Below, in pieces: positions 34,391 to 46,760 of a stretch of DNA of 64,000 nt. The number at the start of each line of letters is the position of its first letter. Position 1 is the first letter of the stretch. Source of the stretch: Pristiophorus japonicus (taxonomy: Eukaryota); contig NW_027251843.1 in NCBI RefSeq assembly GCF_044704955.1, positions 1,116,001 to 1,180,000 of the forward strand. Direction: 5' to 3'. Position numbers and translations under genes: made by a program. The notes under the pieces are model-generated. The model was not told the origin of the DNA, made no database searches, and saw only the letters and a program-made list of their open reading frames with translations.

Positions 34391-36631
34391 AGACTAATCA
34401 ATGTGCCCGTCACTTTATGAGAACAGTAATGGGCTCCAATTGTAAAGTTGCCCAGGCCCGTGACACACAGCAACTGGACAAGTGTAGAGCAAACACCCCA
34501 ACAATCTGCTCACCAGCGTGTCTGTGAGCTGCAGCTGTGAAACCCGTGGAGATTTGAACAACTCTCCGCAGGAGGAAGCCACGGTGATTGGCTGACAGTC
34601 TGGGACGGTAAGGATCGGAGCTGCCTGCCCTTCCACAATGCCAGGCAGGCTGAGGCCAGCGTATTTCACCATTGCTCTGGCCGGCAGGACAGCCTCCTTG
34701 CCGGACTTGCCCAGGTCCATCATCTGATCCCATCCCCCACTTTTCACCGTGTCCTTACTGACTGTTTTATTATTGGTCGGAGCCAGTGGGTCCTTTAGTG
34801 CCCCCACACAGTCCATGCCCATCTCTGCTTCTCCATGTTTCACACCCAGCTGAGCAATCTCTCTGCTTGGATTTGCCGTGGGGAGCAGTACCATTGAGCA
34901 GAGAAACATTAACACAGGGGTTGAGATGAATGAGCAGGGGGCAGAATAACAGCGGGAATAATGTAGTCACCACCACTGCCAACTCGGGCTTAGTGTTCAG
35001 ACGGCAGCCAGGGATCGAAGGTTTAAATAGATTGAAGCTCTCTCCTCATTGCTCTCTCTGGCACAAATGCACAGTCTGTAGCACTTTGCTGTGATTGGTC
35101 CACCCCTGCGGTTTCTGTGTTGCCATGGTTTCCATTGTGAGGCCAGGGGACATGAGCCCTCAGTGGTGATGTGTCCCGCGGGGGGTCATGTGCCCATATA
35201 AGTCCTGCCTGCTGTGTGTGTCAGTTTAAGGTGGGTGTTGGAGGTGGGAGAGGGGCGGTGTTGGGGGATGGAGAGGAGTTGTGTTGGGGGCGGGAGTTGG
35301 GGGCGGTGTTGGGGTTGGGCGAGGGGCGGTTTTGGGGGTGGGAGAGGTGAGGTGTTGTGTGTAAGGTTACCAACCTTCAGAAAAGCACAGAAGGAGACCA
35401 TGAAGTAAAAATTGCTTAATACAAGCTTTTGGAATTTAATACCAGCTTTTGGAATGAAGCTGGACAATTAATGACATTCTGTGGTCAGGGACCAAAACTG
35501 ACTCCATGCATAACAAGAATGGAGTTGTTACGTGAGGCCCTGAACTTGATTGACCAGGGTGGGGAACACAAGCTCACTGGAGACACCAAGGGCTAAAACC
35601 TCCACTTTTGAGCTTAGCACCCAAAAATCGGCGTGATTTCCGGCGTGTGTGGTAAAAAAGGATTTTCAGATCGCCGGCTTCTCGCCCATTCTCAAAACAT
35701 TTAGTTTACATCTTTGAAAATGGCCGTTATCGCGAACGAGTTCAAATGGGCAGCAGCGTAAAATTTTTCTGACCTTCTGTTGTAAAGTGTGGTCGTCCTT
35801 AGCAACAGCATGGGAATGGTCCATTCCCTCGATTCTGGAGGTCAAGGGTAACCATGACATACGCAGAAGAGGAGACAGAGAGAGAGGGAGCTCAGAGGCA
35901 CTGAAAGCGTGTGTGGCTGTGGTGTGTGCTTGTCTGGCTGTTGTGGGAGGCACGAGGGAGATTCACCAGCAGCAAAAAGCGCACTAAGCACCAAGAACAT
36001 AGTTGGCATCGAGTTTTAGTCCCACAAATAACATATAAAATGTAAGGGATGGAGGAGGCCCTGGAGCTGGTAGCCAGGAACACTGGTGGCAGAGGGCTCC
36101 CAGTGATCCCGGAGCGCCGCACTACACCCCAAGGTGAAGCAACCCCATTGCCAACCACACATGAGAGCCAGGAGCAACATCTCGCTTCTGGCTCGAAGCA
36201 CGTTCCCACCTTGGGACCATCTTCTCCCATATCCGTCCAAGCAGTGCTTTGTCCATCACCACCCACCTCCCAATGAAGCATCGCCTGAGAACCTCCGCGG
36301 TCAGGCGGCTTGGAGTCAGAGGGGGAAGGGGAAGGGGTAGAGTTGGGGAGGAGAAGCGGGGTGGGTGGGGGGAAGGGTTGGTTTGTACAGAAATACTGAT
36401 GATTTCAGACTAATGTTTGGTTTAAATGTTTTTTATTGAACCAAACCTTGCAGCACATTGGCTCAGATAGCTGTACCGTTACACGCTGGTGATTTGTTAA
36501 CATCAAAGGATATAATCACACTCAACTTCAATCAAAGTAAACTTTAACAGTCACCAAGGTGATGCCCATGATTAATTTATGACCTGCACACCCAGCAGTG
36601 TGTCAGCTGTGGAAATAACACCAACGTTCTT

Positions 36632-38158
36632 TCAGGCAAAGCGATCATTGATGAGCTCCTGGCGTAAGGCGCTTGCAGCTATCATGCCACCATGGGCCCT
36701 TTCATGTGATCTACAGAAGGGTGGGGGCGTGGCTTCAGCGTCAGCCTGATTGTCTGACCCGATGTCGGCGTCCGCCTCCTCGTCCTCCTCTTCCTCTCTC
36801 TGGTGAGGTGGACTGTCAAGCTCATCAGACAATTCTTGTCCCCTCCTGATAGCCAAGTTGTGCAGCATGGAGCACATCACCACGAATTGAGCTACCTGCT
36901 CAGGGTGGTATTGGAGCTCACCACCTGAGTGGTCCAGGCATTGCTTCTCGGCCTTTTGTCTAAGATCATGCGTAACTGACCTGACAGGGGAGTAACCATG
37001 ACCACAACGTGGTTCTCCCTGGATCAGGAAGGTGGTTCTCCTATGCTTTTTGGAAATAGGAGGTGGGTGGGGTGGCTTGACCCATCCACCTCCATGGCAC
37101 GAACCTGGTATTGCAGTACTTCCAGGAACGGTGCAGTGGCTCTAGGCCTTTTGGCTAAGAGCATTGGCGCAGAGTGATCCTTGATGTGTGCAAGGTGACA
37201 TCTGGCGTTTGTGATTTGACAAAGAATTGGAAAGATTGGCAACGAATAAATTTTAAAAAATAAATTAAAAAATCTATAGCGCTGCTTCAGCACGCCAATG
37301 GTTTTCTCCACAATATTGCGAGTTGCTCTGTGGCTCTCGTTGTATCACCTCTTGGCCTCAGTGTGGGTGTCACACAGGGGATCATCAGCCAGGTGGCAAG
37401 GCCATATCCTTTGGCCCCAAGTTTCCAGCATTGACCTTGTGGCTCAATGTTAAACAAGTCAGATACAATGCTCTCACGCAGGATGTGTGCAGCATGGATG
37501 CTGCCCGGAAATTGAGCATTCACTGCCAGTATAATTTGCTGGTGGTCGACAACCAGCTGGACATTCAGGGAGTGGAATCCCTTGCGGCATCCTGAAAAGG
37601 TGCCCACATCGCGATGTGCGTACAGTCTATTGCTCCCTGCATCTTGGAGAAGTTTGCAATTCTGGAGAAACCTCGAACCCTCTCACTCTGTGCCTCCCTG
37701 GTCATAGGGAAGCTGATCAAGTCTCTCCTGCGTGCGTACAGGGCTTCAGTGACCTGTCTAATGCAGCGATGTGTGGCATGCTGAGAAAGTCTGCAAATGT
37801 CGCCAGCTGTGGCCTGAAAAGAACCCGAAGCATAGAACGATAGTGGCGTGGTGACTTCGACCTCGACGGACAGTGCAGTTCTGATGGTGCTGGTAGGCTG
37901 TAGGCCTGCCCTTATCAGCTGGCATACCTCAGTGATAACCTCTTTGTGGAAGCGCAGTCTCCGAAGGCAGGTGGTGTCGGGCAAGTCGAGGTAAGAATGC
38001 TTCTCCTTGTACTTGCGGGGGGTGTAACGTCTGGTGCTCCTCATCTGTCTGTTATTTCGTACATTGGGCACATAATGCAATGTCGCGTTCCTTCAGCGAT
38101 GTTGAGTCTGCTGCATATATTTGGTCACCAAGAGAGGGTGAGAAAGGACAGGCCCCAT
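36632..38158 (-). pseudogene. HARBI1-like Harbinger transposase, frameshifted and interrupted
   Basis: FYASGSFQ, QGAIDCTHI, RKGFHSLNVQLV, PGSIHAA, EKTIGVLKQRYR|CLD and CSMLHNLAI. Confidence 0.92.
36940..37272 (+). mobile_element. Chimeric U2/U1 snRNA-derived retroposon (SINEU-like) with A-rich tail
   Basis: U2 5' end attgcttctcggccttttgtctaagatca; U1 5' end/SL1 acctgacaggggagtaaccatgacc..gtggttctccc; U2 3' half ..acctggtattgcagtacttccaggaacggtgca; second U2 5' piece ggccttttggctaaga; AATAAA and A-rich end. It cleanly interrupts the transposase reading frame. Confidence 0.88.
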
Positions 38159-44900: not shown

Positions 44901-45731
44901 CCACCGCGATAGTCACAGCAAAGATTCTGGTGCGAGAAGTATTTTCTCAATGGGGACTGCCCCTGATAGTGGAATCAGATCAAGGGAGTCATTTCACCGG
45001 AGCAGTAATGCAGGCCACCCTAAAGCTGTTAGGGATACAGGGGAAATGGCATGTGACGTATAACCCCCAATCGTCAGGTCCAGTAGAGGACAAACCGGAC
45101 CTTAAAAGAGAGGCTTAGGAAGAGAATAGGAGATACCCCGAAGAAATGGGGTGAGACCCTACCCCGAATACTGATGAGCCACCGAGCCAGTCTCTCTAAG
45201 AGTACGGGACACTCCCCACATGTGATGATGACAGGAGACTAATGATGACCCCGACTCATATCCTAGCACCAGTCCTGACTGAAACACAGGTTAAAGAGAT
45301 CACACGGGACAGGTTTGTCAGATCTGTATGGTAATCTGAAGGGGCTGCATTGGGAAACAGCTAACAATATGGGTAGGCAGCACCAGCAGAATAAACTGCT
45401 GCTGGAACTCTGGGTTACACAGGAATGGAGGGCAGGGGATCAGGTAATGGTCAGGAATTATGCCAGAATAGGGGCATTGTACAAAGGACCATATAGCATT
45501 GCAGACAAGGCAAGCCCTATGGTGTACGCGATCCAGCTGCCAAAACATATAAAATGGTTCCATATAAACCAGTGTAAGCTGTACAACCCCGGAGAGAAAA
45601 GTAAAAAGCGGGCCAAGGCCCCAGGAACAATAATGAGTTTGATCAGTGTAAGCCTCCCACCAATACTGTGGGATGATGAGGATGGAGAAGTAAGGGACGG
45701 AGCAGTAAGGTGGAGTGGTCAGGTACTGTGA
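41948..45731 (+). pseudogene. pol: pro-pol: protease, RT, tether RNase H, second RNase H, integrase; decayed
   Basis: [116 protein letters not shown]. Confidence 0.92.
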
Positions 45732-46760
45732 CCTAGGGTGCCCTGGACACCTCCTCCATCTCCACCCCCGAGCCTCTGTAAGTCCAAGCATCGGGATAAA
45801 AGGAGAGGGAAGCAGTGATTGTAAAAAGGAGTTATGGACATTTGTGAATAACTGAAGGAGGACCTGTGAGGGGAAGGCCCCCCAGAGCAAAGGTATTTCT
45901 TTCATTTTTGTCTTTATAGGAGCGAATCGAGCCAAGGGTACGAGAGGAGGTGGACGTTGTGGATAGGCCTGTGGATTCCTGGCACAGGAGGTTGAATTAT
46001 TAGGAAGAAGGATCGCAGCAGATGGCATCAGACCGACCGACGCCAAGACGAAGGCCATCAAGAACACACTGTGACCACAGAACTGCCGTTGTTTCTGGGA
46101 CTCCTGAACTGCTTCGGTAATTTCCTACCTGGGTTAAGCACCCTACTAGAACCCTTGCATGCGCTATTGCGCAGGGGAGACGACTGGGTATGGGGGAATT
46201 CACAAGAGGCTGCTTTTAAGAAAGCCAGAAATTTACTGTGTTCTAACCAACTGCTTATCCTGTATAACCCATGTAAACGACTAGTGTTAGCTTGCGATGC
46301 GTCATCATACAAGTTCGGGTGTGTGTTACAACAGGCTAATGAATTGGGGATTTTGCAACCGGTTGCATATGCATCTAGGAGTTTGTCCAAGGCCGAAGGG
46401 GCCTACAGCATGATAGAAAAAGAGGCTCTGGCGTGTGTTTACATTGTAAAAAAAATGCACCAGTACTTGGTTGGCCTGACTTTCGAACTTGAAACAGATC
46501 ACAAGCCGCTCATTTCGCTATTCTCAGAGAGCAAACGATAAATACCAATGCCTCTGCCCGCATGCCAAGATGGGCGCTCATGCTGTTGGCATGCAACTAT
46601 GTAATTCGCCACAGACCGGGCACAGAGAACTGCACAGATGCTCTCAGTCGGCTACCATTGCCCACCACTGGGGTGGAAATGGCACAGCCAGCGGACTTGC
46701 TTCTGGTCATGGAGGCATTTGAGAATGAGAAATCCCCTGTTACGGCCCGCCAGATCAGGA

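What the first reader, a model, noticed from the sequence alone, without database searches (positions are those of the whole stretch)
35360..45975. Basal retrovirus-like provirus (lokiretrovirus-like) with two RNase H domains in a cartilaginous fish
Seen: the RT has retrovirus-type LPQGFHNSP and YVDD motifs. A Ty3-like degenerate RNase H (tether) is followed by a second RNase H (YVDGS..SDS..KVKAHS..GNEKAD). gag begins with a long coiled-coil region and has one CCHC knuckle, the integrase ends in a GPY-type module, and the PBS partly matches tRNA-Trp. Known: tether plus RNase H marks retroviruses and their sister lineages (lokiretroviruses, Odin elements). As I recall, lokiretroviruses were reported from lampreys, bony fishes, amphibians and reptiles. 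Inference: this may extend that lineage to sharks or be a new basal clade.
Basis: partly seen in the sequence, partly recalled or inferred. Interest (0 to 1): 0.75.

Follow-up and report, generated by a model that had tools for sequence, protein, structure and literature searches.

The report
Dead shark retrovirus of snakehead-Ovex1 type
This is a broken, truncated retrovirus fossil, likely in a shark genome, whose reverse transcriptase groups with true retroviruses and likely with the already described snakehead-virus/Ovex1 type rather than with lokiretroviruses, although its integrase may be closer to the loki type.

Summary
The anatomy is real: coiled-coil Gag with one CCHC, protease, RT, a catalytically dead first RNase H (tether), a second RNase H, and an integrase with a GPY-type end. 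It is not a lokiretrovirus. RT and tether fall inside canonical Retroviridae (RT 100/99; 99/98 under a mixture model), joining the family to loki/Odin is rejected (AU p=0.0035), and loki's CPFGY motif is absent. Nearest kin are 60-73% identical shark and unnamed proteins, then frog, coelacanth and Ovex1-type ERVs; SnRV is near but unresolved. The published elephant-shark CmiERV lineage I has the same layout, including an in-frame UGA between gag and pro. The primer site is a full 18-nt tRNA end, most likely Arg, not Trp. The copy is dead: many breaks, a Harbinger transposon in the 5' LTR, and no env or 3' LTR after a Gypsy junction. One lead remains: the integrase of this group joins loki/Odin integrases (97/91; 81/84 mixture; AU p=0.096, not significant), so the group may keep an ancestral integrase. 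Verdict: new family of a known ERV group, interest 0.3.

The parts
35360..35590 (+). left piece of the likely 5' LTR, starting TGTA
   Evidence: Terminal TGTAAGG mirrors CCTACA at 39476-39481; separated from the rest by the Harbinger. Assignment inferred; not covered by read-laying
35591..38816 (-). nested PIF/Harbinger DNA transposon (not part of the virus)
   Evidence: Terminal inverted repeats and a CAA duplication on both sides; DDE_Tnp_4 E=2e-11
38817..39481 (+). right piece of the 5' LTR, ending CA; about 0.89 kb with the left piece
   Evidence: TATAA at 39044, AATAAA at 39372; summed contig depth higher here than inside the element
39487..39504 (+). primer-binding site, likely tRNA-Arg
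   Evidence: 18/18 complement to one tRNA-Arg 3' end; 36 of 45 close matches are Arg; match to a vertebrate tRNA-Arg(UCG) is recalled
39590..40250 (+). long leader built of about five diverged repeats, 103-137 bp apart
   Evidence: (family D7)
40285..41947 (+). gag, broken by at least four frame changes: coiled coil, capsid-like region with MHR-like motif, one CCHC (41718-41765), ends in TGA
   Evidence: capsid region resembles retrotransposon gag clusters by language-model features (0.92-0.93)
41945..41950 (+). in-frame TGA-CGG between gag and pro, predicted readthrough site
   Evidence: UGACGG is a type II readthrough context (PMC13517186); downstream fold not significant (z 0.47)
41948..42469 (+). 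aspartic protease (DTG near 42050) and spacer
   Evidence: weak RVP hit E=0.02; 50% to P0001
42472..43346 (+). reverse transcriptase, broken
   Evidence: RVT_1 E=4e-25; best solved-structure hits are foamy, Ty3 and MLV RTs
43347..43742 (+). tether (degenerate Ty3-type RNase H)
43890..44317 (+). second, retroviral-type RNase H, broken
   Evidence: PF00075 E=4e-8
44552..45590 (+). integrase: HHCC, DDE core, GPY-type/SH3 end, broken
45896..45919 (+). pyrimidine tract plus AG, likely splice acceptor of the missing env
   Evidence: 18/20 pyrimidines, the strongest of 11 such sites in 38820-46000; env itself not found
45967..46760 (+). unrelated Gypsy RT/RNase H fragment that follows the junction (not part of the virus)
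   Evidence: RT_RNaseH E=2e-27 with intact acidic residues; depth jump

Best explanation
This is a dead, 3'-truncated copy of a multi-copy endogenous retrovirus whose RT lies inside the canonical retroviruses, likely a new shark family of the loosely defined SnRV/Ovex1-related group that also holds elephant-shark CmiERV lineage I. Shown: domain order, dead first RNase H, an 18-nt tRNA-complementary PBS, an in-frame UGA between gag and pro, many breaks, the Harbinger insertion, no env or 3' LTR in the window, many related copies in the same organism. Inferred working cycle of the ancestor: transcription from a ~0.9 kb LTR; Gag with an N-terminal coiled coil, capsid and one zinc knuckle packages the RNA; Pro-Pol is made by occasional readthrough of UGA in a UGACGG context; tRNA-Arg primes reverse transcription; the second RNase H removes RNA while the first acts as a connector; the DDE integrase inserts the DNA; an env was made from a spliced RNA using the acceptor at 45919. 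After germline insertion this copy decayed, took a Harbinger in its LTR and lost its 3' part at a Gypsy junction.
For: RT tree: inside Retroviridae 100/99, loki/Odin outside 97/93; mixture model 99/98; tether tree 100/99. Family+loki/Odin rejected p=0.0035, family+mammalian foamy rejected p=0.0098. Group with Ovex1-type, frog and coelacanth ERVs 80/83; with SnRV added 78/94. RT identity 73% to P0001, 45-54% to frog and coelacanth proteins, 40% SnRV, 33-38% loki, 30-33% foamy. Shark proteins (Heptranchias, Pristiophorus) match at 60-70%. CmiERV scaffold 2, read by eye from the supplement, shares long LTR, repeated leader, coiled-coil Gag, similar MHR, one CCHC, in-frame TGA, LPQGFHNSP and the integrase end; Han 2015 clusters it with SnRV. 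SnRV and Ovex1 have coiled-coil Gag and stop suppression, SnRV one zinc finger (PMC2717909). Up to 56 different contigs of one run differ at a single position and all 30 bins are covered in 4 of 4 runs.
Against: A clade with SnRV itself is weak: 38/18 under the mixture model, and SnRV moves to class I in the RT+tether+RNase H tree (90/94). Gag shows no significant similarity to SnRV Gag (best E=1.2). The integrase joins loki/Odin, not SnRV. CmiERV, CmiFLERV/XtrFLERV, fish foamy-like ERVs, ERV-L and ERV4 were not in the trees. CmiERV-I has a different PBS. Env, readthrough and splicing are untested; TGA could be a private mutation of this copy.
Confidence: 0.72

Rival explanations
1. The shark/frog/coelacanth/Ovex1 group is its own lineage, apart from SnRV, branching at the base of canonical retroviruses and keeping the ancestral loki/Odin-type integrase. 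Same working cycle; compatible with most of the best explanation but a different rank and history.
For: Integrase joins loki/Odin 97/91 and 81/84; IN identity 43-46% to loki/Odin-like against 33% SnRV, 29-32% foamy. In both RT trees foamy+class I+class II group without it (81/55; 80/75). The tip list of Wang and Han's Fig. S3 names no Ovex1-type element.
Against: Holding all canonical integrases together is not rejected (p=0.096). The supporting RT forks are weak; in the longer tree foamy is outermost (83/71). Slow-evolving integrases can group by shared ancestral letters. An ancestral position for the SnRV-containing clade was already suggested (PMC4977317).
Confidence: 0.17
2. It belongs to the shark/frog foamy-like clade (CmiFLERV plus XtrFLERV) of Aiewsakun and Katzourakis 2017.
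For: That clade also joins shark and Xenopus elements; best solved-structure hits of the RT are foamy RTs. CmiFLERV sequences could not be seen.
Against: Family+mammalian foamy rejected; Gag has a CCHC and an MHR-like motif, which spumaviruses lack (PMC2717909, PMC1224870); the fish FLERV RTs in the supplement differ by eye.
Confidence: 0.06
3. It is a lokiretrovirus or Odin-like element in a shark.
For: Dual RNase H, tether motifs resembling loki's, loki-like integrase, no env seen.
Against: RT motif differs; RT, tether and second RNase H trees exclude it; AU p=0.0035; loki found in 0 of 6 chondrichthyan genomes.
Confidence: 0.03
4. It is a Gypsy element that gained a second RNase H independently, like plant Tat.
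For: Capsid-region look-alikes are retrotransposon gag clusters; no env in this copy.
Against: RT is excluded from the 12 Gypsy rows at 100/100.
Confidence: 0.02

Closest known systems
CmiERV lineage I (elephant shark, scaffold 2; Han 2015, PMC4422223)
   Same: Cartilaginous-fish host, long LTR, repeated leader, coiled-coil Gag, similar MHR, one CCHC, in-frame TGA between gag and pro, LPQGFHNSP, tether plus RNase H, similar integrase end (by eye)
   Different: Different PBS; no visible LTR or leader similarity; keeps an env and both LTRs; not placed in my trees, so the exact distance is unmeasured
Ovex1 and related bird/reptile ERVs (PMC2717909, PMC4299795)
   Same: RT groups together at 80/83, integrase in the same group, coiled-coil Gag, stop suppression
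   Different: Ovex1 is a conserved single gene with dead RT, no zinc finger, no PBS, amber stop; 34% RT identity
Snakehead retrovirus SnRV (locus L001)
   Same: 40% RT identity, coiled-coil Gag, one CCHC, in-frame stop, PBS recalled as tRNA-Arg
   Different: Amber stop, other Arg isoacceptor, more degenerate tether, different integrase, insertion between RNase H and IN, accessory ORFs; clade support weak
Unnamed frog and coelacanth ERV Pol proteins annotated 'NYNRIN-like' (P0009-P0014, P0054, P0071)
   Same: 45-54% RT and 43-49% IN identity, same domain order
   Different: Separate families; no formal description found
Lokiretroviruses and Odin retrotransposons (PMC7947760, PMC9040795)
   Same: Dual RNase H, Ty3-like tether, similar integrase (43-46%)
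   Different: CPFGY/LPFGY RT motif; RT, tether and second RNase H outside this family; F-like env (loki) not found here

Membership tests
Lokiretrovirus | RT in the loki clade, sister to canonical retroviruses | tested here: not met
   AU p=0.0035
Lokiretrovirus | dual RNase H with Ty3-like tether | tested here: met
   shared with all retroviruses, so not diagnostic
Lokiretrovirus | env similar to Mononegavirales F protein | tested here: inconclusive
Lokiretrovirus | integrase of the loki/CGIN1 type | tested here: inconclusive
   97/91, 81/84, AU p=0.096; CGIN1 not in the tree
Odin retrotransposon | RT sister to loki; no env | tested here: not met
   only one partial Odin-like RT (P0125, 46% of columns) was on hand; it groups with loki, not with this family
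Retroviridae (canonical ERV) | RT inside canonical retroviruses | tested here: met
   100/99, 99/98; tether 100/99
Retroviridae (canonical ERV) | LTR-PBS-gag-pro-pol order with tether plus RNase H | tested here: met
   one LTR only
Retroviridae (canonical ERV) | env | tested here: inconclusive
   absent from this truncated copy; acceptor-like site after pol
SnRV/Ovex1-related ERVs (SnRV-like, clade Huo) | Pol clusters with SnRV and Ovex1, outside class I, class II and foamy | tested here: inconclusive
   with Ovex1-type 80/83; with SnRV 78/94, 38/18, not; ERV-L not sampled
SnRV/Ovex1-related ERVs (SnRV-like, clade Huo) | N-terminal coiled coil in Gag, zero or one zinc finger, in-frame gag-pro stop | tested here: met
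   against PMC2717909 and CmiERV-I
Spumaretrovirinae / FLERV | RT in the foamy clade | tested here: not met
   AU p=0.0098 against 6 mammalian foamy rows; fish FLERVs and CmiFLERV not sampled
Spumaretrovirinae / FLERV | Gag without zinc finger and MHR | tested here: not met
   one CCHC E=1e-8, MHR-like motif
Metaviridae (Gypsy) | RT in Gypsy clade with a single active RNase H | tested here: not met

The most novel reading that the evidence does not exclude
The shark/frog/coelacanth/Ovex1 group is the earliest-branching lineage of canonical retroviruses and still carries the integrase of the common ancestor shared with loki and Odin elements. Loki's integrase would then be ancestral rather than a replacement, the other retroviral integrases derived, and this group a candidate source of the mammalian gene NYNRIN/CGIN1.
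Probability: 0.2. Interest if true: 0.6.

Novelty: new member of a known kind. Interest (0 to 1): 0.3.

Why it matters
As filed, modestly: it adds a high-copy shark family to a poorly classified retrovirus group that Chong et al. 2014 left unclassified, corrects the primer assignment, and leaves cartilaginous fish without a lokiretrovirus. If the integrase signal holds, it would change the accepted account of integrase replacement at the origin of retroviruses, since the reference set of the loki study names no Ovex1-type element.

Tried and rejected
No host genome is held, so copy number, intactness and 3' ends of other copies could not be examined. P0001 found no relative in viral or metagenome contigs. 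No RNA holder listed. SnRV Env and Gag against the window gave only the zinc knuckle; pairwise Gag comparison was not significant. Single-sequence model of the capsid region had pLDDT 44 and was not searched. RNA downstream of the UGA folds no better than shuffles. No tRNA gene in the window. The second-RNase-H tree is unresolved beyond excluding loki/Odin and carries a long-branch warning; in the tether and RNase H trees the P0007 row came from the second, gamma-like pol of that gene model. Contig depth was not used as copy number, and its identity bands include flanking repeats, so they do not date the family. Searches of earlier findings returned nothing. CmiFLERV and XtrFLERV sequences were not in the supplement text that could be read.
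Full report
Observation. The element lies on the + strand. Six-frame translation and Pfam (17 frames scanned) give a heptad-rich Gag start, one CCHC, a DTG protease, RT with LPQGFHNSP and YVDD, a Ty3-type RNase H domain, a second RNase H, and an integrase with HHCC, core and SH3/GPY-type end. The first RNase H has lost the three acidic positions that the Gypsy rows keep, so it is a tether. Pol is broken by at least seven frame changes and three stops, gag by at least four frame changes (by eye). 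A Harbinger transposon occupies 35591-38816 inside the likely 5' LTR. LTR probes find no second copy and SnRV Env finds no match in the window; an unrelated Gypsy fragment follows from about 45975. An acceptor-like site ends at 45919 (strongest of 11). The PBS complements tRNA 3' ends over 18 nt; 36 of 45 close matches are Arg, 4 are Lys, none Trp (a pattern-selected, non-host set).

Host and copies. Proteins of Heptranchias and Pristiophorus match at 60-70% and an Ig constant exon lies upstream, so a shark host is likely. In 4 of 4 runs laid on 38500-47000, contigs cover all 30 bins and up to 56 contigs differ at one position: a multi-copy family. The left LTR piece lay outside that stretch.

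References. All came from tools. L001 is SnRV (10,688 nt as in PMC12193657; RT equal to the supplement row). L002 and L008 have the WDSV and MoMLV lengths given in PMC13517186. P0059 carries four Ovex1 motifs quoted in PMC2717909. Loki rows were labelled by the motif seen in the loki supplement, one being from Labeo rohita. P0125 resembles Odin by eye. Foamy, lenti and beta labels rest on motifs, partly recalled; 'eps' labels of unnamed proteins were my guesses. The RT tree used 61 of 75 rows screened, IN 63 of 72, tether 60 of 72, second RNase H 48 of 60. ERV-L, ERV4, fish FLERVs, CmiERV, CmiFLERV and CGIN1 were missing.

Phylogeny. RT: inside canonical retroviruses 100/99, loki+Odin-like outside 97/93, Gypsy outside 100/100; 99/98 under a mixture model on 33 rows. 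Family+loki/Odin is rejected (p=0.0035) and family+foamy is rejected (p=0.0098). The tether agrees (100/99) and the second RNase H excludes loki/Odin (98/94) but is otherwise unresolved. Within retroviruses the family joins frog, coelacanth and Ovex1-type proteins (80/83). SnRV joins them at 78/94 in one tree, 38/18 in another, and goes with class I in the longer alignment. The integrase behaves differently: the same group joins loki/Odin at 97/91 and 81/84, but holding canonical integrases together is not rejected (p=0.096).

What is known. Han 2015 described CmiERV lineage I from the elephant shark as clustering with SnRV. Its sequence, read by eye, shows the same layout, including the in-frame TGA, with another PBS and an env. 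Xu 2018 gives the SnRV-related clade Huo in all major vertebrate groups; Naville and Volff note it may be an ancestral branch; Chong 2014 leaves Ovex1/SnRV relatives unclassified, some with GPY/F and a zinc finger. Wang and Han found loki in 0 of 6 chondrichthyan genomes and inferred that loki replaced its integrase. Seven literature searches showed no description of this exact family or of the integrase affinity; Repbase and subscription journals were not searched.

Mechanism. Inferred from anatomy and established retrovirology: LTR-driven transcript, tRNA-Arg priming, Gag-Pro-Pol by readthrough of UGA in the UGACGG context listed as type II in PMC13517186, which also reports UGA at this junction in three aquatic retroviruses; tether as connector, second RNase H active; DDE integration; env from a spliced RNA. 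None was tested. This copy is a fossil.

Papers seen. PMC7947760: parts 1-3 of 4, supplement parts 1 and 8 and search passages (only 300 of 318 pages are held; the rest may hold the CmiFLERV alignment rows). PMC9040795: parts 1-2 of 4, passages of supplements 2 and 6. PMC12440569: part 1 of 5. PMC4422223: part 1 of 2, supplement part 1 of 3. PMC5512871: passages, section 7, supplement search. Passages only: PMC2717909, PMC12193657, PMC1224870, PMC6001957, PMC4977317, PMC4299795, PMC8278194, PMC9447858, PMC10699275, PMC13517186. Recalled, from no call: SnRV's use of tRNA-Arg, the vertebrate tRNA-Arg and tRNA-Trp ends.

Verdict. A new family of a known, loosely classified ERV group; not a lokiretrovirus. 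Interest 0.3. The integrase signal is the one lead worth a better-sampled tree (probability 0.2, interest 0.6 if true).

Noticed in passing
window 35591-38816: PIF/Harbinger transposon with terminal inverted repeats and a CAA duplication, inside the likely 5' LTR; transposase broken.
   Followed up: yes
window 21536-21863: Immunoglobulin constant-domain exon after a splice acceptor, ending in Cys-Ala-stop; light-chain type and shark-like look are from recall. The ERV lies about 13 kb from it.
   Followed up: partly
window 45967-46760 and 48000-54700: Several fragments of another Gypsy family on both strands (Mag-like by recall), mixed with many LINE copies that fill most of the window.
   Followed up: no
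window 39590-40250: Leader made of about five diverged repeats; the published CmiERV-I leader also has repeats. Function unknown.
   Followed up: partly
proteins P0010, P0012 and L001:6131-9535: Frog gene models run from pol into a hydrophobic, Ig-looking segment reminiscent of the start of SnRV Env; Pfam gave no hit for these parts.
   Followed up: partly
proteins P0053, P0042: Shark gene models (SENP2-like, lysophosphatidylcholine symporter-like) begin with pieces of this or a related ERV family: annotation artefact or exonisation.
   Followed up: no
proteins P0001, P0008 and P0201/P0204: Related Pol proteins of 1113-1155 aa with open frames on unnamed contigs: the group includes younger families of unknown host.
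   Followed up: partly
window 31168-31680, 33034-33501, 35234-35357: Minisatellites of 33, 52 and 23 bp; the last ends right at the LTR start.
   Followed up: no
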